A stretch of 64,000 bases of DNA from Podospora anserina (lineage: Eukaryota), in contig CM030334.1 of NCBI GenBank assembly GCA_017654855.1, positions 186,001 through 250,000 of the forward strand, in the 5' to 3' direction. The notes beneath the pieces are model-generated. The model saw only the letters and a program-made list of their open reading frames with translations. It ran no database searches and was not told the origin of the DNA. The position numbers and the translations under genes are program-made. Shown one piece after another: positions 11,973 through 30,025 of this stretch. Position 1 is the first letter of the stretch; every line of letters starts with the position of its first letter.

Positions 11973-12777
11973 ATGTCAGCTCAGGACTACTACAATTCGT
12001 ATCAGGGCGGTGGTGGTGGCGGCGGTCAGCAGCAACAGCAGCAGCAACAGGGCTACGGTTATAGCAACTCTGGCCAGCAGACATACGACGGTCAGCAGCA
12101 GGGTCAGGGGTATTATCCCCCTCCTCCTCCTCCTCCTCCTCCGCAGCAGCAGCAGCAGCAGTATTACCCCCCGCCTGGGCAGCCACACCCGCAAGGGCAG
12201 TATGGACAGCAGCAGTATGGCCAACACCAGGGACAGCATGGTCAACACCAGCAACCCCCGCCCTACCACCAAAACCAAGACCCGGTAGCCCACCAAGAGC
12301 AGCAGCAGCAAGGAGGTAAAGATCGCGCCGGGCTTGGAAGTGCTCTGCTCGGCGCGGCAGCCGGCGCTTTGCTTGGGCACTCGGCCGGAGGGGGAGGCAG
12401 CGGAGGCGGATCACTGGCTACGGCCGCGGCCGGGGTTCTTGGAGGGGCGTTTGCGGGGAATAAGCTGGAGGGGGTGATTGGGGATAAGTAAGTTCTTGTT
12501 TTGGTTTTGTTTTTTTAGCGACCTGGGGAGGAGTTGCTGACTCGACTGAAATAGACTTGACAAGCCGAAGAAGGAGGAGAAGAAGGACAAGGACAAGGAG
12601 GACAAGAAGGACAAGAAAGACAAGAAGGACAAGCACAAGGAGGGGAAGAAGGAGAAGGATAATGAGGGGAAGAAGGAGAAGAAGGAGAAGAAGGAGAAGA
12701 AGCACAAGAAGGAGAAGAAGAGTAAGAAGGGGAGTGGGTCTGATTCGGACTCGTCGGATAGCTCTGATTCTGACTGA
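11973..12777 (+). CDS. Low-complexity protein: Q/G/Y/P-rich N-terminus, glycine-zipper segment, K/E/D-rich tail (intron 12488-12554)
   Basis: ATG at 11973; the GTAAGT...TAG intron joins in frame to a KKEKK-rich exon ending SDSD*. Confidence 0.8.
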
Positions 12778-13941
12778 GGGGGTTGGGAATGGGGGTGTTG
12801 ATGTCTTGTCCCTATTGAAAACCTAGCATGCGTTTCTTGCACAGTTATCGGAAGTATCATGTTGCCACAATCATCAGCTCCATGTTGCCGGTCTATGATG
12901 AAACAACAGTTATGAAGTCTGCGCCAAGAATCTCCAGAGGGAATGATCCAACTCGTAGCTACCTTGGGTGTAAATGCGATATGCAACTTTCCCAACCCTC
13001 CAGGCACAACCACGCTGCACATACTACCTAAGAGTTACCTTGAGATTTCAATTTCAACCCAAACCTCCACAACCAACCACCAAACCCAAGCACCCCTCCC
13101 CAATTTTCTCACAAAAATCGTCACAAAGCATGCAAGGCCAGCGGCAATAGACACAACCCTCCATTCACCACCCCGCCTCCTAGCCCGTCACCTGCCACCC
13201 CACCGGCTCACGCTCCTCCTGCAGCCGCGGTGAGGGAGGTCTAGAAGCAGCGAGCCACCGAACGGGCGACCTTCCAGATCTCTGCAGCGCTCGGCATCAC
13301 AGAACTCCATGGCCAAACCGAAATCGACAGCGTAAAGTATGTTCCCGTGCCTGCCGGTTCCCATCAGGAAATCACAAGAAATATTGCCAAGGGATCAGCG
13401 CCAGCTAACCGAAATAAATGCTGCCGTGACTGGCGATGCAAAATCACACGCGTCCGCGATTCCGAGAGACCAACAGATTTTGAACCGGCCCGCTGACCTT
13501 CTCTGGGGTGAACAATTGAGCCAAAACCAATGCTGCAGAGTCAATTATATACAAACCTGACAACGTCTGATTGGTTCTAACACCAATCACACAGAAAAGA
13601 CTCCAAAAAATATTAGTGAAGGAGATTTAAAATCTCTTAGCTCGATGACTCTGCAAAAATGCTCGCCGAAGTTCGTCAAGCTTTGCACTAACACGTTCAA
13701 GAGATCTGTGGCACTTGAAGCCGAGATCCGGGCGTTTGGATGTGGCCAAATGGGGGTTTGAAATTGACTTATTAGGGTATAATTTTCTTGTTCAGACCGG
13801 TGTGACACTAGTCTTAAGCCAGAATCCCGGGCTTGTTTAGTCTTCTAGCCTTGGGCCGGGGCCGGCCGGATTCCGGTGTGGCCTCAAGCCGGGCTCCGGG
13901 CTCGCAAGTTGGTCAGTCCACAAATTGGTGAGAGCACAAAG

Positions 13942-14150
13942 TTACCAGTCAAGCTATTCTACATATGCCACGGATTACCGGTCAGGCCATGCTACATACA
14001 AAGCCGCTTACTGGTAATACACTTGGTCTTCAGGCGACAGTTACCAGTCACGCCGTTCCGTGTACGTCAGGGGTTACTAGTCACACAGTTCCGTGCCCAA
14101 CAAGGGCTACCAGTCATCCCATTCAACAGCGAAGAAAGGGTACTGGTCAC
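13942..14150. repeat. Degenerate 33-bp-period array, 7 units (core TTACCAGTC)
   Basis: Cores start at 13942, 13975, 14008, 14041, 14074, 14107 and 14140. Confidence 0.85.
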
Positions 14151-14616
14151 TGCTGCCCTTGTACATGGAAGCAAACAGGGCCATAGGACATCTGGCACTT
14201 CGTATGATCAAGAGTGAGCAAGCGAAGCGTTAGCGCAGGTGAAGAAGTTGCTGACTTGACTAGAGGTTGAGTACCGAACCTGTATCATAGTAATATTCAT
14301 AGAAACATCTCTCTCTGTACTACAATAAAATTCAGGTTCAGCTTCCGCCTTTAGTGCCTTGAGGACGAAGAGAAGAAAGGTCTTTGCCTTGAGGAACGCA
14401 AGGCTTCTAGAGGACGCGCGAAGAAGGGGGAGCCCAAAAAACCCTACAGACCCGCAAACATTTGACCTTTTTTTGGTCACATGCACACGCGATATGTGCG
14501 TTTCGAGGGGCTCCTTTTGTGTCGTGTGTGTGCCGTGTAAGTCAGTCACAACGCCTGTTTTTCTCTTTCTGCCGCTCAGACCGCCCTACCGCAGACTTTG
14601 AACACTGGAAAGTATT

Positions 14617-14812
14617 TCATATATGTCGCACAACTGCTCTCTTTTTCTTTTTGTGTCTCAATTTTTTGGTGTCTCCCCAGTCCCAGGTTTCTGCGTCCGC
14701 AACGGTCGCTTCACTCAGCTGGTCCAGCCTTTTCTCTGCAGCTGTCATATTCTCGGGCACGATATTGCCGACGAAATCTCTCTCTCGCACCCTGGAAAGA
14801 AGCATGATGCCT
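14617..14812 (-). pseudogene. C-terminal remnant of a PIF1-like (Helitron RepHel-type) helicase
   Basis: GIMLLSRVRERDFVGNIVPENMTAAEKRLDQLSEATVADAETWDW; a second copy at 22264-22420 extends to CRTLDGIMLL, resembling the sequence after SF1 motif VI. Confidence 0.6.
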
Positions 14813-14853
14813 TTCTTCTGCTAATCCCAGGTCCACAATCTATCTGCCTGCCG

Positions 14854-15723
14854 TTAATTATCCCAGAACCCTTTACCTCCGTACTCATTTCCAATAAGGA
14901 CCTTAGACTCGCCCTTCCCCACAACCGTCTCTACCGAGTTGGTTGTCTGGTCGCTGATACGGATCTCACCATGTAGGGCTGCCGCAGTGACAACATTGCC
15001 GAGCTGGACCCTTGCACGTTTCTCTGTTCTGATATCCTTGGCGGAATTCCTTCCCACAATCGCGTCGATCTTCTGCGCAGCCGCATCAGACATAGCTGCG
15101 TCGATTCCCCCCGCCGCATCCTTGAGTATTGTTAGGCTCGCCTCGTCCTCCACCTCTTCAATCTCGTTCTCCGCTAACTTGTGACATACGGCCTCAATAG
15201 GGAAGGCCTTCTCCAGCTCATCGACAAAGCCAGCGACCTGGTCGACTATTTTCTCGAGGCTTTTTCCGTCGTACAATGCCCATGCCGTCTTTTTCGCTAG
15301 GCTCGTCTGTTTCTGTCTCCGAGAAACGAGATCTTTTAGCCGACGATGCAGCGCTCGTCCGATCGGCTTCATATCCTTATCCTCGAACACCACCAGATCC
15401 TGCTGGTCCGCAACGAGCTCGTATCGCTTCGACGTCTTCTGGGCGGACTCGAAGAGAAGCAAGATTTCCTCGACGATCGATTTCGCTAATTGCACCGACT
15501 TATCGATTGGCGCGCTGGAGTGGAAACGTGGGTCGTCGTTGATCTGGACCGCCTCGCCCCATCGGCTCAATCGGACTTTCGCAATGTCCAGTCGGAGCTG
15601 GCATCTCTCGTAATCGCGCCCAAAATGGCGACCCAGCTGGACGTACTCAAAACAGGCAACGCAGTTATTGAAGAGGCCGGCAACGCCCAAGGCGCCAGCA
15701 ACGATCTCGAACGGTTCTGACAT
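14854..15723 (-). CDS. het-S: HET-S: HeLo domain plus prion-forming domain (218-289), 289 aa, het-S allele
   Basis: MSEPFEIVAGALGVAGLF...KIDAIVGRNSAKDIRTEKRARVQLGNVVT...NSVETVVGKGESKVLIGNEYGGKGFWDN; Ala23 and His33 mark HET-S rather than HET-s (Asp23, Pro33). Confidence 0.99.
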   Translation of the reverse strand: MSEPFEIVAGALGVAGLFNNCVACFEYVQLGRHFGRDYERCQLRLDIAKVRLSRWGEAVQINDDPRFHSSAPIDKSVQLAKSIVEEILLLFESAQKTSKRYELVADQQDLVVFEDKDMKPIGRALHRRLKDLVSRRQKQTSLAKKTAWALYDGKSLEKIVDQVAGFVDELEKAFPIEAVCHKLAENEIEEVEDEASLTILKDAAGGIDAAMSDAAAQKIDAIVGRNSAKDIRTEKRARVQLGNVVTAAALHGEIRISDQTTNSVETVVGKGESKVLIGNEYGGKGFWDN

Positions 15724-16114
15724 GGCAGTTTGACGGGAAAGCGAAGGTTGATGTTCCTGTGCGGCTGAACGTGCCCGCTTGCTGCTAAAGGCGGGGTACA
15801 CACCATCAGGCCGCCGTCCACATTGCCCAACCTCCTCGTTGCCCAACCCGAAAGTTGCGCAGTTGGCAATGAACACTTTATTGCGCTGCTACTAATCAGC
15901 TCCGGTCACTCAATATTGAGACATAAGAGCACTTTCATCTAGGCAATATCTATTACGAGTCTGCACAAGCGACTTCCTCTTGCTGCGAACGCCGACGCAA
16001 CCTTTGTTCTCGATCATAACGCACGAAGATGGTAGACAATCTTCGCGGCAATCGCAAGCTGGAGGCACCCTGAATCGATGCTTCAAGCAATCCAACCGCT
16101 TCGTCACTGCCACG
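15724..16114. promoter_or_regulatory. 391-bp divergent intergenic region, probable bidirectional promoter
   Basis: Head-to-head ATGs at 15723 (-) and 16115 (+); promoter activity itself is inferred. Confidence 0.6.
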
Positions 16115-18789
16115 ATGGCAAATCAGGTTCGGTCAATACATGCTGAAGGGCAAGCACGCGTGCATGTCGGCAATAGTTATTACGGCTCGAGCGACTTCCT
16201 CCCGACCGCAGACGATGCAGCCTTCGACTCCCACGCGGAAGAGCATAACGCCCGATGCCACCGCGACACCCGAACCGAGCTCCTCCGTCAGATCAGAGAG
16301 TGGGCAGACGATCCTCACGGCAAGACTATCTTTTGGCTGAACGGCATGGCAGGGACAGGGAAATCCACCATTTCTCGAACCGTGGCAAAGTCGTTCGCGG
16401 ACGACGGCATCCTCGGCGCGAGTTTCTTCTTCAAAAGGGGGGAAGGCGACCGTGGCAAAGCAACCTTGTTTTTCCCTACAATTGCCAGCCAGCTTGTGCG
16501 CAAAATCCCTGCCCTGGAGGCTTTTGTCAGAGAGGCTATCAATAACAACCCGGATGTTGCCAGGAAGGCACTGAGAGACCAATTCGAAAAGCTTATCCTG
16601 CAGCCTCTGGATCGCATTCACCACGCTATAGCTGTGATCGTCGTTGACGCTCTCGATGAGTGTGACGGTGACAACGACGTGAAGGTCATCATCTCCTTAC
16701 TATCACAAGCAAAGGAACTCCGCTCCCCAGGTTTGAGAATCTTCATTACCAGCCGACCTGAGCTGCCCATTCGCCTCGGCTTCAAGAACGTTACGGGAGA
16801 GTATCAGGACCTAGCACTGCATCAAATCCCGGAACCAATCGTCGAACACGATATATCTGCATTCTTGCGACACGAACTCGCGAGAATCAGGGACGACTAC
16901 AACCACCAAGCTCTCGAAGGCATAGAGCTGCTGCCAGATTGGCCCGGTGAACATGCTATTCAAACTCTCGCTCAGATGGCCGTCCCATTGTTTATTTTCG
17001 CTGCAACCGTATGCCGCTTCATTGAAGATCCGGCGTGGTCAGATCCCGCCGATCAGCTGGAGAAAGTCTTGCAGTATCAGATGAAGGCCTACGATTCCGA
17101 GCTCGGCAAGCTCGACGCGACATATTTCCCAGTTCTCAAGCAGATCATTATCGGACATACTAATCCGCAGAAGCTATTAGCTGCCTTCCGAGATGTGGTT
17201 GGCCCCATTGTCCTCCTCGTTCAGCCCCTCTCGGTGTTGTCGCTTGCAAAACTTCTCAACTTCTCCACTAAATCCATATATGGCAGGCTCAACTCTCTCC
17301 ACTCCGTCCTAAGCATTCCCTCGAGGATAGATTCTCCTGTCAGACTCTTTCATTTGTCCTTCCGTGACTTCCTCGTCGATCCAACCAAGCGTGCTGCTGA
17401 GTTTTGGATCGACGAGACAAAATATCACAAGACACTTGCGGACAGATGTATTCAACTGTTGCACCAACACCTCATGAGAGATATCTGCGGTCTACAAGTG
17501 CCGGGAAAGCTGCGGTCAGAGATCGATCAGCGAACTATTGACGCCGCTCTGCCGCCCGAGACCCAGTACGCCTGTCAGTACTGGGTCCACCATTTGAAGG
17601 AGGGTAGAAGCACCGTACAGGATGGCGGCCCAGTCCACAGCTTCCTGACGAGCCATCTACTTCACTGGCTTGAAGCGCTCAGCCTCTTGGGCCGTATCTC
17701 GGAGAGTATCAGCATAGTAGACGACTTATTAACCTTTCTACATGTATGTTACGCGCCTTTAGTAACCTCGACCACACTAACATTGCCACATAGCCCACAA
17801 GTGCTACTGAGGTATATGCATTCCTCTGTGATCTGAAACGGTTTATTTTAAACAGTCAATCGATTATCGACATAGCGCCTCTTCAGATATACGCTTCAGC
17901 ACTTGTGTTCAGCCCGGCCCGCAGTATAACAAGAGGCATATTTAAGCAAGAAGAACGGAAGTGGATTACTAGCGGGCCAATTGTACAAGATAGTTGGAAT
18001 GCGTGCCGGCAGACGCTAGAGGGGCATAGCGATTCGGTCTGGTCGGTCGTATTTTCGCCGGATTCGAAGTGGATTGCCTCAGGGTCAGGCGATTGTACCA
18101 TTAAAATCTGGGATCTCGAAACTGGATCATGCCAGCAGACGCTAGAGGGGCATAGCAGTTCGGTCGGGTCGGTCGTATTTTCGCCGGATTCGAAGTGGAT
18201 TGCCTCAGGGTCAGGCGATTGTACCATTAAAATCTGGGATCTCGAAACTGGATCATGCCAGCAGACGCTAGAGGGGCATAGCAGTTCGGTCGGGTCGGTC
18301 GTATTTTCGCCGGATTCGAAGTGGATTGCCTCAGGGTCAGGCGATTGTACCATTAAAATCTGGGATCTCGAAACTGGATCATGCCAGCAGACGCTAGAGG
18401 GGCATAGCGATTCGGTCAGGTCGGTCGTCTTTTCGCCGGATTCGAAGTGGATTGCCTCAGGGTCAGACGATCGTACCATTAAGATCTGGAATCTCGAAAC
18501 TGGATCATGCCAGCAGACGCTAGAGGGGCATAGCAGTTCGGTCAGGTCGGTTGCATCTTCCCTTAACTCAACATTAATTGCATTCCGATCAGATAACGCC
18601 AACGCCCCGCATTATGAACACTATGGAATAAGCTCAGATTATAGGTGGATTACAAGGGCCTCAAAAAACTGGCTATGGTTGCCTACGGAATACCGGCCGA
18701 ACTGTTCGGCCGTAGCGGCATCGAGGATAGCCATTGGCTGTATGTCCGGGCGTGTCCTAATTATAATATTCCCAGCGGATAATGAGTGA
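16115..18789 (+). CDS. nwd2: NWD2: NLR with N-terminal HET-s-like amyloid motif, NACHT domain and WD40 repeats; 874 aa (intron 17744-17793)
   Basis: MANQVRSIHAEGQARVHVGNSYYG; P-loop GMAGTGKST; Walker B IVVDALDEC; FITSRPE; FHLSFRDFL; the GTATGT...TAG intron joins to APLQIYASALVFSP and the WD repeats. Confidence 0.96.
18013..18555 (+). repeat. 126-bp (42-aa) WD40 tandem repeats: 4 complete plus 1 partial
   Basis: Units start at 18013, 18139, 18265, 18391 and 18517; units 2 and 3 are identical. Confidence 0.97.
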
Positions 18790-18980
18790 TCTCTCTTTCT
18801 ATTTATTTTTCTATCGTAGCGTGCCAAAGGAGGGGTCCGGGGGGCTCCTTTACTTTATAGTCAGTTATAATATGTCACGATGCAAACTACTGAGCAAAGG
18901 TCGTGGAATGGATGATTGCCATTCACAAAGGAGTGAAAGACACGGGTATGCAGTGGAGTCAGAAAGACGTCACAGAAGAC

Positions 18981-19050
18981 GTCATGGAATTGGCGATCCA
19001 GATGATTGAGATCTGTCATGGAATTGGCGATCGAGATAATCGAGATCTGC
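18981..19050. repeat. 34-bp tandem duplication
   Basis: GTCATGGAATTGGCGATC..GAT.AT.GAGATCT at 18981 and 19015. Confidence 0.85.
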
Positions 19051-20139
19051 AGACTGTATATCTTTCGCTAGTATTTCGCTTGCCTCTCGAAAGGGAGAAG
19101 GCAAGCTTTAGTCTCTGTTCAATATACGATCTATCATTGTTTGATGACAGCGCTTCCTACCTAGCCTCTGATTGAGAAATCTTTAATCTTGTTGTAACAT
19201 AACATTCTAGAATCTTCCAAGCCTTATCTTCACCCCTGAATTGCTCTCCTTCGTCGTAAAGACTAATTGGCTCTGGAAGCTAACTGAGAGGCGTCATAAA
19301 GCGGCGACCAATCGGAACAAATCCGAGGTCTGGCTAACCTATCTTTGACATTAGCGCCGCAACCTCAGACGGGTTCACTGACAAAGCAGGGGTAGATGGA
19401 TGGATGGAATTTATTACACGTGTACGCCCGGAGACACTAAGCTTAAAGGGCCTATTGCACGCTAACTACATTCGGTTCATATACTTCCGCCGTTGTCTCG
19501 TCAAATCAAAGCAGGGCACTGTTACTACAATGTACAGGGCTGTTTGAATGGGTTACGGTTTTTTTGGGTAGGCATCTTCGTACACGGCATTTCAGAAGAC
19601 GGACACCGTTTAGGTGTCCCTACGGTGTGTGTACCGCGGTTCTTCTGGATGCAGGACAGAAAGCTTAGGGTGAGTTTGATAATTGAAAAGAAGTTCAAAT
19701 AGAGTTTGTTCCATTTCATGTTGTATTCCCAGGTTCTCACCTGATTCCCCCACTTTCAAACCCTTGTTGATCTGCATCGCGTGTGCCACCCGGGACCCTG
19801 GCCCGGCATCCTGAAACCTGCGGAATGTCAGCCAGTAAAAAGCAGCTGCAATCAGATTGACGAAGATTCACCACAAACAATCCAACATCTTCAAGGTATC
19901 CTGTCATATAGCCTCGTTCCTCAAGGCTCTTTAGGCAAACCGCAACCGGTTTGCGTCTCCTGTTTTTGGTCACATGCACACGCGATATGTGCGTTTCGAG
20001 GGCGTCCTTTCGTGTCGTGTGTGTGCCGTGTAACCCAGTCCCAACGCCTGTGCCTTGAGGAACGAAGAGACGAAAGGTTTTTTGGCGCCGCCCTCGGAAC
20101 AAAGACCCACAAACACTCGTCGGAATTCGTCATGTGTTC

Positions 20140-21017
20140 TCGCGTCCTTTGCGTGTTCTGCTCCGTCAGAGGATGGCACTCTGGAGATCAGCATCCAAAC
20201 ACTGAATTTAATGAGGTATGTTTTTTCTCAGCTCTCTGCATAATCCAGCTGACACTTTAGACACCCTGGCGACGTGGCTGATTTTGACGACTACCGCCAG
20301 CGCTTATCAGAACAATGGTGCCCGATGGTGTCCATCATCGGTTCGGTGCCCTCTAGCGAAAGTAACTCCACGGGCGCCTCCGATTCCCGCCACTTTACTA
20401 TCGAAACATCAGTATATGACCCCTCGAAAACCGCCCCGGTTTATTTCTCGGTAGTTTGCTTTTTGGAAAACACTAAACGATGGCAGAAAGTCAAGACACC
20501 CCCATCGGGAGCCTTTCTCAGTGTTACCGCGAAGCTGGCCGGCCGCACAACCGACACGAATCGTCTGGCCCTTCGGGTTCTTGACCTTACATACCTGCCT
20601 AGACCTAGCTCTGCGATCGCAACGCCGACCCCGGCTGCCACTCCGACTTCGAAACGATCACGTTGGGAAGGTCGAGCGCCTGCATCGACTCCATCGAAGA
20701 AACCACGCACCTCGAGGCCTGTCGATGGAACTACCACGCCTTCCAACAGGAATGACACGCCACCTGAACCGACGCAAGCCGGAACAAATTTGCCACCAAC
20801 AGGAGATACAGCGGAGTCACTATTTGTCACCCCTTCCCCATCAACTACTGTTAACCATGAAGATTCCTCGGTCGACTCTATTCCACCATCGAGCTCTGAT
20901 AATGGGATACGACCGCACCGCAGCCGCCATCCCCCGAAGAAATATGCCGAGTTGGATGACTTCTTTTTTTCCATGCTTTTGTACGACGTCGAAAGCAGCT
21001 TATTTCCCCGAGATTAG
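20140..21017 (+). pseudogene. 5'-truncated gene (intron 20216-20260), possibly an OB-fold domain followed by a P/T/S-rich tail
   Basis: The splice gives DGTLEISIQTLNLMRHPGDVADFDDY...; no convincing start codon; the fold is guessed from the alternating beta pattern. Confidence 0.4.
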
Positions 21018-21078
21018 CCTCGATCGGAGTGTCTGCCTACCAGTCGTGAGCGCTGCTCCGCCAAAGGACTAGCCTTTC

Positions 21079-21651
21079 TTAGCTACCTTCACCATTTTTC
21101 GGCACACAGCTTGTCTTGTGTACCTTCTAATCCGCTCTCTGATGCTCTCTTCCGTAATACGCTGCTCCTTTACACCTCCCGCAATTTATAATTCCTTCCG
21201 TCTTCCCGCATATTCTACAAGATATATGTCCCGCATTTACACTGGACCGTGATGCTCCCCAACCTTGGTTTTCGGCTATAACTTCGGCTATCATTTCCTG
21301 GACGTCCTTCCGCGTCCGGGTTTCACATTCTCCCTTTCCGTATATAGGGTTAACTCATATAGTAACAAAGGGATCCTTCGTATTATCAAGCCAAGACATT
21401 GGCGTCTGTAAAACTCCCGCTGAGAGTTGGCCGCAATTCTCGCAAAACCGTTCGGAAGCGTCGCGACATGCCGCCTCGTGCACTTTAAGGATAGGCTGTA
21501 TGGCGGTGGCAAACCGACTTATGTACTGGGCATCTGTCTGGGCGGCTTGAGGCTGGCCATTGACGAGACTGCTGGGAATATTGTGAATGAACTTCAGCTC
21601 TTCGGCGCCCCCTCGCAAGTGAAATTCGAAGCGAACTGGACGGGTATCCAT
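21079..21651 (-). pseudogene. MYND zinc-finger protein pseudogene
   Basis: Reading through two stops gives CRICGK...CGRCKGAAYYGREHQRAD*KVHKTSC; the stops are consistent with TGG>TGA/TAG. Confidence 0.7.
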
Positions 21652-22013
21652 GACTCACGGCAGTAAAATACGTAGGTTAAGACGGGGCAATGCTGTAGAT
21701 AGAAAGAAGTTTAAAGAGAGTTCGTTTGGATGTGCTTGTAGAACTCGTTTGGATGTGTCCGTATCATATCATATCTCATATATCACCTCCTTTTCTGGCA
21801 ATCCTTATTCGGAAAAATGCGGAGCTACCAGTGATCCTGGCCTCGACACCCCTGAAACCGGCATTGATATAAGCCACTTAAAAAGCAATCTCTTCGCAGG
21901 AACCTGATGAACGAATTTTGCTACAAATATCCTAACATCTTTAATATTCCTGTGTCGTCCATCTTCGTTCCTCAACGCTCTTTAGGCAAACCGCTTGCGG
22001 TTTGCGTCACCTG

Positions 22014-22420
22014 TAGAGGACGCGAAGGGAGGGGAAGCCCAAAAAACCCTACAGACCCACAAACACTTGACCCTTTTTTGGCCACATGCACACGCGATAT
22101 GTGCGTTTCGAGGGCGTCCTTTCGTGTCGTGTGTCGTGTGTATGATGTGTAATTCAGTCACAACGCCTGTTTTTCTGCCGCTCAGACCTCCCTACCGCAG
22201 ACTTTGGACGCTGGAAAGTGTTTCGTTTGTGTCGCACAACTGCTATCTTTTTCTTTTTGTATCTCACCAGTCCCAGGTGACTGCATCTGCAATAGTTGCT
22301 TCCCTCAGCTGCTCCAACCTTTTCTCCGCTGCTGTCATATTCTCTGGCACAGTATTGCCGACGAAATCCCTCTCTCGTATCCTGGGCAGGAGCATGATGC
22401 CGTCCAACGTCCGACACCAC
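22014..22420. mobile_element. Third, 5'-clipped copy of the Helitron-like 5' region with helicase remnant
   Basis: Collinear with 14408-14811 (TAGAGGACGCG...CACATGCACACGCGATATGTGCG...AGCATGATGCC). Confidence 0.8.
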
Positions 22421-22520
22421 GAGATGTGCATGGTGAGGGCCAAGAGCTTTTGCGGGTCGGCAACCCATTTATCAAGGGCATCAATAACCAAGACGGCGAC
22501 CTCCAAGTTCGGCTCCTCTG
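22420..22520 (-). pseudogene. NACHT Walker-B fragment (HET-E/NWD-like)
   Basis: EEPNLEVAVLVIDALDKWVADPQKLL resembles the DPNL..YLIIDALDECV.DL.KLL consensus. Confidence 0.5.
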
Positions 22521-22570: not shown

Positions 22571-22940
22571 CTACGCCAACGTTGCTTCGGTCTTCGATCT
22601 CCCTAATTGCCACTTCGAAACCACCTCGACCCTTTTCAGATTCCTCGCTACTTGGTCCCACAGGACAGCCGAAAGAAGCAAGGCCAGAAACAGCACTGGC
22701 AGTGCAGTAGCAAAATACATCCAGAAATTCTTCTGTCCTGGAGAGTAAGTATCAGACATGCTGAACAGGCTGGTGACCCAAGACAACGGCACAAACACCA
22801 GCGCCTAAAAGTCAGCCGGCTAACATTGGCAGCCTCTCGCATCGAGCGACGCGAGTCAAGCAGCGTCACCATCGACGTTGCTACCGGGAGCATGTGCTCG
22901 ATCGAGCGGTTAAAATACTTTAGCTGTGACAGCACGTACT
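22571..22940 (-). pseudogene. CorA-like transporter C-terminal fragment, frameshifted
   Basis: RSMREAANVSRLT / FVPLSWVTSLFSMS...FWMYFATALP two-TM signature. Confidence 0.65.
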
Positions 22941-24104
22941 TGATATCTCTCAGTATTAGATTCCACGGCTATTTATTAGCTTCGTGATATGACTAATAGT
23001 TAATAAACTTAGATTAGAATTACCTTATACTAGCTTTATATACTCCGCCACCACCAACGCTAGAGGTTAATAATATCGTTCAGAGAGCATCTATTATACT
23101 TGCATATGGTGGCGAGGTATGCGGCAAATGGTGTTTTTGTCTCGCTGAGCTGGCTGCTCTCCTGGGATCTTTTTCAGCTTGGAGAACCGCACTCAATCCA
23201 GTATCTTTTGACAAGCTGCTCTGCCTGTTCCTGACAGCACTTCCTGACTAAAACCGTAAATATAATCTAAGCTTAAGAACACCTTTTGCTGTCTTACGCA
23301 GTTAGTATTAGGCTTGGCTGTTTGCATGTCAGTAGCATCTTCGGCTAGGCGCCTAGGCGAGGGCTAGATCGGTTGTTATCATACATCTTAAGAGGCAGGT
23401 GCGTAGCTGAAGAATGTATGGGTTCCATCCGGAGCTTAGGCGGAGGGAACTATGCTGGAAGACATCTATCACGTTCAATGGGGTCTTGGTTACCAGCCAG
23501 TAATGCCTTGACCACCTGGCAGGTGGCTGTCAGGTGCGCAACAGGAAAATCTGGATGGGGGCACAGTTGGCAAAGAACAAGAGAAACAACAGATTCAAGC
23601 AACTGGAGCAATAGATCGTCGATTAGCCAGCGGTTACTAGGAATCTGGGAGCAGTACTTGAGCGTTCCTAGTAACGAGCGTAGCCGTCGCCAGCGTTCCT
23701 AGGAACCTATAGAGTCATATGGAGTGTTTCTAGTACCGAGTGTAGCCGGTAGCCGGCGTTTCTAGGAACCTAGGTTACTAGGCACCACAGCACCGTAGAA
23801 TCAGGTTACTACGCATGTGGCACTGTGGTGTCCAGTAACACAGACCCACAAGTGCCTTGTGTCTAGTAACGCGGACGTTCCCTCACAGGCACCCGCGTTA
23901 CTAGGCATCACAGCCTAAGCGTTCGCTACGGTTACTAGACATCTGCCTGAACCCAAGATGCGGTTACTAGACATCTGCCCAGGATGCATACCCAGGACCG
24001 CCTTGAGCCCGGGATGTAGTTACTAGACATTTGGCTGACCAGTCCGCGGTCGCCCGCGGATCCAGGTTCCCGGTGCGGACCCAGCACGTTTGCGTGTGTA
24101 ATAG

Positions 24105-24287
24105 TGTTGGGCTGGCGACCTAGGAAAGTCACTGGCTGCGAAAATGAGGCTAAAATGGCCAAAAAATGGTAAGCAAATTGGTATTACAGTAGTTGGTTGT
24201 TGGTTAAAAAGTAAACAGTAAGAAAATCCAGCCCCAAGAGCAAACCGGTGTGGGTCTGGGAAAACCTGGGCCCTTTGGTGCCCCACA
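24105..24287 (-). repeat. 3' LTR (183 bp)
   Basis: Identical to 29843-30025. Confidence 0.97.
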
Positions 24288-29842: not shown

Positions 29843-30025
29843 TGTTGGGCTGGCGACCTAGGAAAGTCACTGGCTGCGAAAATGAGGCTAAAATGGCCAA
29901 AAAATGGTAAGCAAATTGGTATTACAGTAGTTGGTTGTTGGTTAAAAAGTAAACAGTAAGAAAATCCAGCCCCAAGAGCAAACCGGTGTGGGTCTGGGAA
30001 AACCTGGGCCCTTTGGTGCCCCACA
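29843..30025 (-). repeat. 5' LTR (183 bp)
   Basis: Identical to 24105-24287. Confidence 0.97.

What the first reader, a model, noticed from the sequence alone, without database searches (positions are those of the whole stretch)
14355..19962. het-S and nwd2 appear to be cargo of a non-canonical Helitron-like element
Seen: the pair is bracketed on the left by TGCCTTGAGGAACG (14385, with a second TGCCT terminus at 14355). On the right come its 13-bp inverted copy (19915-19927), an 8-bp stem-loop and CTCCTG (19962). A helicase-like remnant starts about 40 bp after the het-S stop, so the het-S 3' UTR would be transposon-derived. Recalled: asymmetric inverted repeats with a 3' hairpin define Helitron2/HLE2, and TGCCT...CTCCTG are the termini I remember for some Fusarium FoHeli elements. 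Inference: the whole prion/NLR module was captured and moved by rolling-circle transposition. I am not aware of this being reported.
Basis: partly seen in the sequence, partly recalled or inferred. Interest (0 to 1): 0.85.

Follow-up and report, generated by a model that had tools for sequence, protein, structure and literature searches.

The report
het-S/nwd2 between real Helitron ends
The classic Podospora prion/immune-receptor gene pair het-S and nwd2 lies between a genuine left end and a genuine right end of a rolling-circle transposon (Helitron) family, so the pair looks like the transposon's payload, although whether it ever moved that way could not be shown.

Summary
The motifs are the ends of a real RepHel-encoding Helitron2 family of the FoHeli3-5 type.

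Evidence for the family:
- The same 14-nt terminus and the same 3' module (inverted copy, 8-9 bp hairpin, CTCCTGT) flank intact 8.8-12 kb RepHel elements in fungal metagenome contigs.
- The last 50-60 codons of RepHel survive next to two 5' ends in the window.

Layout of the interval 14385-19963 (5,579 bp):
- about 434 bp of Helitron 5' region, whose RepHel remnant ends 36 nt or less from the het-S stop codon;
- about 4.9 kb with no Helitron homology, holding het-S and nwd2;
- 232 bp of Helitron 3' region.

The interval sits in a head-to-tail nest with two further family pieces. One is an internally deleted element at 20051-22014. The other is a third 5' fragment at 22015-22440. Its 3' junction lies at the same T-run of a family 5' region where an autonomous relative is inserted in another organism.

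What is not shown is movement. The unit is single copy in this genome. No further copy of the laid family segments (at 80% likeness or more) was seen, so no autonomous partner. No empty site or relocated copy could be examined.

I rate "payload of a composite Helitron" at about 0.55, "transposed as a unit" at about 0.4, and "resident genes flanked by decayed Helitrons" at about 0.33.

The parts
14355..14384 (+). 30-nt stub of a Helitron 5' terminus (TGCCTTGAGGACG...AAAGGTCTT), directly in front of the full 5' terminus
   Evidence: Sequence. It is 91% identical to the first 33 nt of the element at 20051. The same stacking, a stub ending ...AAAGGTCTT followed by a new TGCCTT terminus, is seen in metagenome locus L034.
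14385..14818 (+). Helitron 5' region 'A'. It holds the terminus TGCCTTGAGGAACG, a terminal 6-bp hairpin (14386-14404), a T-run with a CACATG box, and the 3' part of the RepHel gene on the opposite strand.
   Evidence: The first 62 nt are 89.7% identical to a family 5' end in L024, L026 and L034. Positions 14408-14811 are 88% identical in aligned columns to copy C at 22014-22401.
14677..14818 (-). Remnant of the last ~50 codons of the RepHel transposase. The rest of the gene is missing.
   Evidence: BLASTP E 2e-19 to residues 1694-1742 of the 1743-aa protein P0003, which has PF14214 and PF05970. tblastn. blastn to 19 of the 42 loci.
14854..15723 (-). het-S coding sequence. It encodes 289 aa with HeLo and HET-s_218-289 domains and His at residue 33, which is the het-S type. 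The stop codon is at 14854-14856.
   Evidence: ORF. Pfam E 1.7e-56 and 1.7e-24. The role of residue 33 is from passages of PMC13449251.
16115..18789 (+). nwd2. It encodes an NLR with an N-terminal HET-s-like motif, NACHT and five 126-nt WD40 units, is transcribed divergently from het-S, and has an inferred 50-nt intron at 17744-17793. There is no repa/yeti insertion.
   Evidence: ORF. Pfam NPHP3_N, NACHT and HET-S motif. Repeat family D1. The intron is read from the sequence (inference).
18790..19731 (.). 942 nt downstream of nwd2, with no recognisable content and no Helitron homology
   Evidence: No blastn or tblastx hit to the 42 family loci. Single depth in contigs.
19732..19963 (+). Helitron 3' region. 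It holds the inverted copy of the 5' terminus (19915-19927), the hairpin (19935-19954) and the terminal CTCCTGT (19957-19963).
   Evidence: blastn to L024, L026 and L034 over 19732-19962, and to 11 further loci over the last ~50 nt. Alignment with the second 3' end stops exactly at ...CCTGT. Hairpin covariation.
19964..20050 (+). Fragment 'B'. It is 87 nt of a family 5' region, matches positions 82-174 of copy A, and begins inside its T-run.
   Evidence: 93% identical to A and 92% to C. It is homologous to the right flank of the autonomous element in L007, L009 and L030.
20051..22014 (+). Element 'E2' (1,964 bp), an internally deleted non-autonomous family member. It holds a 5' terminus at 20051-20064, the family accessory ORF (20325-21017, 230 aa), a MYND-finger ORF on the minus strand (~21100-21651), and a 3' module (21966-21978, hairpin 21986-22005, CACCTGT 22008-22014). 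It has no RepHel.
   Evidence: Four E2 segments, about 1.4 of its 1.96 kb, match internal or terminal parts of autonomous elements: 20050-20162, 20157-20957, 21364-21653 and 21839-22014. ORF230 has homologs in 14 of 42 loci.
22015..22440 (+). Helitron 5' region 'C'. It follows the E2 3' end head to tail, with its terminus degenerate or truncated. The RepHel C-terminal remnant lies on the minus strand at 22267-22440.
   Evidence: The same adjacency of a 3' end to this type of 5' region is seen in L024, L026, L034 and in L007, L030.

Best explanation
The interval 14385-19963 is a composite, non-autonomous Helitron2 element of the FoHeli3-5 type, and het-S and nwd2 are its payload.

It keeps the two cis-acting ends of the family:
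- The 5' end has the terminus TGCCT..., a small terminal hairpin and 434 nt of 5' region. The transposase gene reads towards that end, as in FoHeli4 and FoHeli5.
- The 3' end has an inverted copy of the 5' terminus, a conserved hairpin and the terminal CTCCTGT.

The 8-11 kb body that holds RepHel in autonomous relatives is replaced by about 4.9 kb of unrelated DNA. That DNA carries the two complete, divergently transcribed genes.

Inferred mechanism: the body was replaced during a capture event, by template switching or end bypass during rolling-circle transposition. A RepHel supplied by an autonomous relative then nicked at the 5' terminus, unwound to the 3' hairpin and terminus, and pasted the single strand into a T-run inside the 5' region of another family member. 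This built the present head-to-tail nest.

A side effect is that het-S is followed, 36 nt or less after its stop codon and on the same strand, by the tail of the transposase gene. Its 3' UTR and terminator are therefore probably Helitron-derived.

The family now looks extinct in this genome, so the unit is fixed in place.

Shown: the identity of the ends, the family, the layout and the single-copy state. Inferred: the capture, the transposition of the unit, and the use of the 3' UTR.
For: 1. The terminal motifs are those printed for FoHeli3-5: start TGCCT, end CTCCTGT, 13-16 bp ATIR, transposase ORF reversed in FoHeli4 and FoHeli5, multiple 5' termini common.
2. RepHel C-terminal remnants lie beside two of the window's 5' ends.
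3. The family link holds in 42 metagenome loci fetched with a related RepHel.
   - 22 loci reach the RepHel C-terminus, and 18 of these have 350 nt or more downstream.
   - 14 of those 18 carry a TGCC... terminus (2 mismatches or fewer) on the opposite strand within 2 kb. It is the exact 14-mer in 9.
   - 13 of the 23 loci with 3 kb or more upstream of RepHel carry the 3' module.
   - Several loci are near-duplicates, so roughly 8-9 lineages are independent.
4. The 3' hairpin is kept through compensatory changes at 4 of 9 pairs in 15 sequences.
5. Within 14385-19963, homology to the family is confined to 14375-14446, 14660-14818 and 19732-19963. The 942 nt downstream of nwd2 and the intergenic stretch also gave no tblastx hit.
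6. Homology between the two 3' ends in the window stops exactly at ...CCTGT.
7. The 3' junction (CTCCTGT, then TTTTGGTCAC...) lies in the T-run of a family 5' region. An autonomous 12-kb relative in L007 and L030 is inserted at the homologous T-run of a homologous 5' region. The stub-then-terminus stacking at 14384/14385 is repeated in L034.
8. There is a precedent. FoHeliNA1 keeps only 27 nt of the 5' end and 166 nt of the 3' end around unrelated DNA.
Against: - No second copy, empty site or relocated het-S/nwd2 was seen.
- In contigs of two runs, 18786-19953 and E2 are at single depth apart from two small local excesses. The extra depth over B and C is largely accounted for by the window's own copies A, B and C. 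So there is no sign of mobility and no autonomous partner at 80% likeness or more.
- The two flanks of the unit do not form one uninterrupted family 5' region. The left flank ends at about position 30 and the right flank starts at about position 82. One extra event is therefore needed, either a deletion between T-runs or a collapse of an 81-nt direct repeat.
- 0 of 42 family loci hold a HET-S homolog. The one NWD-like gene, in L015, lies outside its Helitron.
- Published work places het-s/nwd2 as an old locus with trans-species polymorphism across the species complex and does not mention Helitrons. Any movement would therefore be ancient.
- Capture of two whole working genes is uncommon for Helitrons, and the FoHeli study found little capture.
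Confidence: 0.55

Rival explanations
1. het-S and nwd2 are resident genes flanked by Helitron debris. One family member inserted downstream of het-S and another downstream of nwd2, both in the same orientation. Each later lost the part next to the genes through a deletion. What remains is a 5' fragment on the left and a 3' fragment on the right, which only mimic one element. At most the arrangement could be mobilised by end bypass, but it never moved.
For: - The unit is single copy and the family is otherwise absent from the genome.
- The locus is old and shared across the species complex.
- The family makes many truncated and stacked fragments, including stubs and solo 5' regions, in the window and in the metagenome loci.
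- The flanks of the unit are not one clean split target.
- Copy C shows that a 5' fragment cut at nearly the same point in RepHel can exist without any 3' partner in the window.
Against: - It needs two separate Helitron clusters 5 kb apart in one orientation. It also needs two deletions of 8-11 kb that each removed exactly the gene-proximal part, one ending 36 nt or less from the het-S stop codon.
- The family's habit is to insert into or next to its own 5' regions, which gives one cluster rather than two.
- Fragment B begins exactly at the family's T-run insertion point. The only matching left half (positions 1-81 of that type of 5' region) to its left is at 14385-14467, on the far side of the genes.
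Confidence: 0.33
2. The payload was captured in place and never transposed. A resident Helitron at this site suffered a break, and its body was replaced by DNA copied from the original het-S/nwd2 locus elsewhere (filler-DNA repair). The original copy was later lost. The genes are inside a Helitron, but the composite itself never transposed.
For: It gives the same layout as the best explanation. It also explains the single-copy state and why the flanks need not form a clean target.
Against: It requires loss of the donor copy, and two copies of more than 4 kb would have been exposed to RIP in the meantime. Neither the genes nor the Helitron pieces show a RIP signature: A versus C has 31 transitions and 14 transversions, symmetric in direction. 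The 3' junction sits at a typical insertion point of the family, which fits an insertion event.
Confidence: 0.1
3. The motifs are a chance resemblance and no Helitron is involved.
For: None beyond the shortness of the individual motifs.
Against: - The motif count is far above chance.
- RepHel remnants lie beside the 5' ends.
- The same ends occur around intact RepHel genes in 14 of 18 testable loci.
- There is 78% identity over 801 nt between E2 and the interior of autonomous elements.
Confidence: 0.02

Closest known systems
FoHeli3-FoHeli5, the non-canonical Helitron2-type elements of Fusarium oxysporum (Chellapan et al. 2016, PMC5148889; passages read)
   Same: - Start TGCCT with a small 5' hairpin, end CTCCTGT, and a 13-nt asymmetric inverted repeat.
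- The transposase gene is reversed relative to the ends, as in FoHeli4 and FoHeli5.
- An extra ORF without known domains lies upstream of the transposase and opposite to it, as in FoHeli3.
- Stacked 5' termini and head-to-tail copies occur.
- Autonomous relatives are 8.8-12 kb, against 9-11 kb for FoHeli3-5.
   Different: - This family has a conserved hairpin between the inverted repeat and the 3' terminus. The paper describes FoHeli3-5 as lacking a 3' hairpin.
- The host is Podospora, which the paper's main text does not name. Its genome list is in a supplement I could not open.
- The window copy has lost RepHel and carries two host genes.
- Phylogenetic placement of the RepHel remnant within FoHeli3, 4 or 5 was not tested.
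FoHeliNA1 and FoHeliNA2, non-autonomous FoHeli1 derivatives (same paper)
   Same: They are short elements that keep only the terminal cis-sequences. NA1 has 27 nt and 166 nt around 637 nt of unrelated DNA. NA2 is a plain internal deletion, like E2 at 20051-22014.
   Different: They derive from the other FoHeli group (TCAG...ATTTT ends). They are multi-copy with signs of recent transposition and hold no complete genes.
Helitron gene capture by end bypass or filler DNA, as in maize, bats (Helraiser, PMC4778049) and Pleurotus (PMC4289320). I saw these only as search listings and abstracts and as cited.
   Same: Host DNA lies between intact Helitron ends, and the transposase-coding body is replaced.
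   Different: Captures are usually gene fragments and are found as several copies beside a parental gene. Here two whole, working, functionally coupled genes are present once, with no parental copy.
Enterprise and Starship elements of Podospora and other fungi (PMC8092012, passages read; PMC9156397, search listing only)
   Same: They are cargo-carrying mobile elements in the same species that move conflict or immunity-type genes such as Spok.
   Different: They are moved by a tyrosine recombinase, are 100 kb or larger and make target-site duplications. No such features are present here.
The repa/yeti LTR insertion in nwd2 of het-s haplotypes (PMC3321046 and PMC13449251, passages read)
   Same: It is the only transposon so far described at this locus.
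   Different: It is an LTR fragment that interrupts nwd2 in the other haplotype. It is absent here, where nwd2 is intact, and is unrelated to the Helitron ends.

Membership tests
Helitron2 / FoHeli3-5 group | The 5' terminus begins with TGCCT | tested here: met
   Found at 14385 and 20051, plus a stub at 14355.
Helitron2 / FoHeli3-5 group | The 3' terminus is CTCCTGT | tested here: met
   CTCCTGT at 19957-19963 and CACCTGT at 22008-22014. Homology between the two copies ends there. CTCCTGT ends 8 of the 13 distinct 3' modules from the loci.
Helitron2 / FoHeli3-5 group | Asymmetric terminal inverted repeat of 13-16 bp: the 5' terminus repeated in inverse, subterminally, at the 3' end | tested here: met
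   14386-14398 against 19915-19927 is complementary at 13 of 13 positions. 20052-20064 against 21966-21978 is complementary at 12 of 13.
Helitron2 / FoHeli3-5 group | The ends belong to elements that encode a Rep-helicase (Helitron_like_N plus PIF1) | tested here: met
   Remnants are in the window. Among intact elements, 14 of 18 testable loci have the 5' terminus and 13 of 23 have the 3' module. The Pfam domains of P0003 are as precomputed.
Helitron2 / FoHeli3-5 group | Hairpin pattern as published for FoHeli3-5: a 5' hairpin and no 3' hairpin | tested here: not met
   The 5' hairpin is present at 14386-14404. A conserved 3' hairpin is also present, with compensatory changes. This differs from the published description, so I file the element as a relative of the group and not as FoHeli3, 4 or 5 itself.
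Helitron2 / FoHeli3-5 group | No target-site duplication, and insertion at T-rich sites | tested here: inconclusive
   No duplication is seen at 14384/19964. The right flank starts in a T-run, and L007 is inserted at the homologous T-run. [quoted passage not shown]
Mobile (transposed) Helitron copy | More than one copy, or an empty site, or a different location in a relative | tested here: not met
   The unit's 3' part and E2 are at single depth in contigs of X1 and X9, and no joint skips the unit. Only the same haplotype was available: all 20 holders share 0.98 of the words. Other species could not be examined.
Chimeric Helitron with captured genes | Non-Helitron DNA between a 5' end and a 3' end in the same orientation | tested here: met
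   Between 14819 and 19731 the only blastn hit to the 42 loci is from the WD40 repeats, to an unrelated NLR gene in L015. The two flank stretches tested by tblastx gave nothing.
Chimeric Helitron with captured genes | A parental (donor) copy of the captured genes elsewhere in the genome | not testable with these tools
   No whole genome is held. het-S itself was not in the laid stretch.

The most novel reading that the evidence does not exclude
The HET-S/NWD2 amyloid-signalling pair is a mobile two-gene immune cassette. A Helitron picked up the NLR and its pore-forming executioner together and delivered them to this site. Helitron transport of such pairs would then help explain why HeLo/NLR pairs stay adjacent yet are patchily distributed among fungi. 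That would make them a eukaryotic counterpart of transposon-borne defence islands. It would also mean that the 3' end of the best-studied fungal prion gene is a domesticated transposase terminator.
Probability: 0.15. Interest if true: 0.85.

Novelty: new member of a known kind. Interest (0 to 1): 0.62.

Why it matters
het-s/het-S is the textbook fungal prion and allorecognition locus, and NWD2/HET-S is the model for amyloid signalling by NLRs. If the pair sits inside a transposon-bounded unit, three questions become testable with assemblies that already exist:
- how the locus arose;
- why the two genes stay glued together;
- whether such modules can be moved or transferred horizontally.

The finding also documents a FoHeli3-5-like Helitron family in Podospora. 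I found no mention of one in searches of the held paper library. It further shows that two ORFs next to nwd2 (20325-21017, and the MYND-finger ORF at ~21100-21651) are Helitron genes and not host genes.

Even under the rival reading, the stretch directly after the het-S stop codon is transposase-derived, which bears on het-S expression.

Tried and rejected
**Steps that could not be run or gave nothing**
- Whole-genome search of the window's assembly: none is held.
- Sequencing runs as a source of other haplotypes or species: all 20 holders carry 0.98 of the sampled words, so they are the same haplotype. No empty-site test was possible.
- Run X22 laid no reads and is no test.
- The 1990 repa paper is not held.
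- Supplements of the FoHeli paper were not opened. They hold the list of 102 genomes and the termini tables, and they may show whether Podospora was surveyed.

**Ideas dropped**
- "A carries three stacked 5' termini." The first 62 nt of A are contiguous in L024, L026 and L034, and 14386-14404 is the terminal hairpin. Only the stub at 14355 is extra.
- "E2 is a second gene-capturing element." Its ORFs are family ORFs: ORF230 in 14 of 42 loci, the MYND ORF in 3 of 42.
- "The stub at 14355-14384 plus B form one clean split target." They share only a T-run plus GG with the E2 5' region across the junction, and about 50 nt of a standard 5' region would be missing. This is left as equivocal.
- "Divergence among A, B and C is due to RIP." The substitutions are symmetric, with 31 transitions and 14 transversions.
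- "The 5' and 3' ends of the unit can be paired by subfamily." The best hits (L024 type for both ends; L007 type for both ends of E2) are suggestive, but the identities are too close to decide.
- [quoted passage not shown] There is no Pfam hit at E of 1 or less. Only a 36-nt paralogous piece appears in reads.

**Searches that found nothing**
- tblastx of the unit's non-genic parts and of both outer flanks against the loci.
- Further 3' modules or termini elsewhere in the 64 kb.
- A RepHel body elsewhere in the window, by tblastn.
Full report
**What is in the interval**

The window holds the Podospora het-S/nwd2 locus.
- het-S is a 289-codon ORF on the minus strand (14854-15723). It has HeLo and HET-s prion-domain hits and His at residue 33, which published work uses to define the het-S type.
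- nwd2 runs divergently on the plus strand (16115-18789). It has an N-terminal HET-s-like motif, NACHT and five 126-nt WD40 units.
- nwd2 is not interrupted by the repa/yeti LTR reported for het-s haplotypes.

**The observation**

- The 14-mer TGCCTTGAGGAACG (one mismatch or fewer) occurs three times, against 0.05 expected by chance.
- The hairpin pattern occurs exactly twice.

So there are three 5' ends (14355 stub, 14385, 20051) and two 3' ends (19963, 22014), all in plus orientation.

**Are these Helitron ends?**

The published description of FoHeli3-5 matches: start TGCCT with a degenerate 5' hairpin, end CTCCTGT, a 13-16 bp asymmetric inverted repeat, a length of 9-11 kb, and a reversed transposase ORF in FoHeli4 and FoHeli5 (passages of PMC5148889).

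Two stretches on the minus strand next to 5' ends, 14677-14818 and 22267-22440, encode the last 50-60 residues of a RepHel protein. BLASTP gives E 2e-19 and 2e-22 to residues ~1680-1742 of a 1743-aa Gaeumannomyces protein with Helitron_like_N and PIF1 domains.

With that protein I fetched 42 related loci from metagenome contigs.
- 22 loci reach the RepHel C-terminus, and 18 of these have 350 nt or more downstream.
- 14 of those 18 carry a TGCC... terminus on the opposite strand 161-1512 nt downstream. It is the exact 14-mer in 9.
- 13 of the 23 loci with 3 kb or more upstream carry the 3' module.
- Several loci are near-duplicates (L007/L009/L030, L019/L027, L024/L026/L034, L012/L013), so perhaps 8-9 lineages are independent.
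- The 3' hairpin keeps pairing through compensatory changes at 4 of 9 pairs in 15 sequences.

One difference from the paper is that FoHeli3-5 are described as lacking a 3' hairpin, while this family has one.

**Anatomy of the nest**

Self-comparison and comparison with the loci give the following order.
- A 30-nt 5' stub lies at 14355-14384.
- The unit 14385-19963 follows.
- Fragment B lies at 19964-20050 and matches positions 82-174 of a family 5' region.
- Element E2 lies at 20051-22014.
- The 5' region C lies at 22015-22440. It follows the E2 3' end head to tail and ends in a RepHel remnant.

E2 is not a gene-capturing element. Its 5' end, an 801-nt block with a 230-codon ORF, part of a MYND-finger ORF and its 3' end all match the interior or ends of autonomous relatives. 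The 230-codon ORF has homologs in 14 of 42 loci, always between the 3' end and RepHel on the opposite strand. This fits the extra ORF reported for FoHeli3. E2 is an internally deleted, non-autonomous copy.

Head-to-tail junctions and stacked 5' stubs like those in the window are common in the loci: L014, L018, L019, L024, L026, L027 and L034.

**The unit that holds het-S and nwd2**

Within 14385-19963, homology to the family is confined to 14375-14446, 14660-14818 and 19732-19963. The remaining ~4.9 kb gave only WD40 hits, to an unrelated NLR gene in L015. The non-genic parts tested by tblastx gave nothing.

Relative to an 8.8-12 kb autonomous element, the whole body is therefore replaced by the two genes. 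About 434 nt of 5' sequence and 232 nt of 3' sequence are kept. That is more than the 27 and 166 nt that FoHeliNA1 retains.

The clear RepHel homology stops 36 nt from the het-S stop codon, and a weak extension reaches to within 3 nt. It lies on the same strand as het-S. The het-S transcript must therefore run into the tail and downstream region of the former transposase gene. This last point is inferred, because no RNA data were examined.

**Was it moved?**

Points in favour:
- The 3' junction (CTCCTGT followed by a T-run and GGTCAC...) lies at the T-run of a family 5' region.
- In L007 and L030, a 12-kb autonomous relative is inserted at the homologous T-run of a homologous 5' region, and both halves of the target are recognisable there.
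- The stub-then-terminus junction on the left is repeated in L034.
- The only left half (positions 1-81) that could go with fragment B lies at 14385-14467, on the other side of the genes. This fits insertion of the whole unit followed by collapse of an 81-nt direct repeat.

Points against:
- The two flanks as they stand are not one clean split target.
- The unit's 3' part and E2 are at single depth in the contigs of two runs. The extra depth over B and C is largely accounted for by the window's own copies.
- No joint skipping the unit was seen, and no autonomous partner at 80% likeness or more.
- Only the same haplotype was available.
- 0 of 42 family loci carry a HET-S homolog.
- Copies A and C differ by 11.8% with symmetric substitutions, so the difference is not RIP. 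It may reflect subfamily differences or age.
- The published trans-species polymorphism at het-s implies that any movement predates the species complex.

**Verdict**

- I rate the reading "payload of a composite Helitron" at about 0.55. Within that, actual transposition of the composite is about 0.4.
- The main rival, resident genes between two decayed Helitrons, is at about 0.33.
- Capture in place without later movement is at about 0.1.
- Searches of the held paper library for Helitron together with Podospora, het-s, nwd2 or heterokaryon incompatibility found no report of this. The FoHeli paper's main text does not name Podospora, and its supplements could not be seen.

The decisive test is a comparison of the locus across existing Podospora and Sordariales assemblies. 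I could not run it.

Noticed in passing
window 24105-24287 and 29843-30025: Two 183-nt direct repeats, 100% identical, bracket a ~5.5 kb block of 19-22% G+C that looks like a RIP-mutated transposon. The repeats themselves are not AT-rich.
   Followed up: no
window 13940-14149 and 23620-24040: Clusters of short repeats are present: GTTAC[CT]AGTCA-like on the left (4 copies of a 45-nt unit) and GTTACTAG-like on the right. They lie just outside the Helitron nest on either side and may be subterminal repeats of another transposon. blastn found no match between the two sides.
   Followed up: partly
window 22455-22490: A 36-nt stretch directly after the RepHel remnant of copy C reads ...VLVIDALDKW... 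on the minus strand, like a NACHT Walker B. It attracts 54-56 Hi-C reads and contig pieces from elsewhere in the genome, with loose ends on both sides. There is no Pfam hit.
   Followed up: partly
window 22676-22804: 129 nt are 86% identical to a piece of another contig of the same genome (5612 nt in X1 and 7287 nt in X9). The content is unknown.
   Followed up: no
window 20325-21017 and ~21100-21651 (minus): The 230-codon ORF and the MYND-zinc-finger ORF next to nwd2 are Helitron-family ORFs and not host genes. ORF230 has homologs in 14 of 42 loci. The first part of the MYND ORF has homologs in L024, L026 and L034 only. Neither ORF230 nor the first MYND exon has a Pfam hit at E of 1 or less; the zinc-finger exon was not scanned, and its MYND motif is read from the translation.
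   Followed up: partly
L015 12631-14057: An NWD-type NLR gene lies about 540 nt outside the 5' terminus of an autonomous Helitron in a metagenome contig. Its NACHT C-terminal part is 35% identical to NWD2 and its WD40 repeats are 65% identical at DNA level. It is a neighbour of the element, not its cargo.
   Followed up: partly
window 17878-18633: In one Logan contig (X1), the stretch between copy A and 18640 is 378 nt shorter than in the window, which equals three 126-nt WD40 units. This is either assembly collapse of the repeats or real length variation.
   Followed up: no
window 20525: There is a single T>C difference in run X9 (contig) and in all 11 Hi-C reads of X21, but not in X1.
   Followed up: no
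window 11973-12740: The gene left of the nest is highly repetitive. It has a Gln/Gly/Pro-rich ORF followed by about 15 overlapping copies of a 9-nt Lys/Glu/Asp-coding unit.
   Followed up: no
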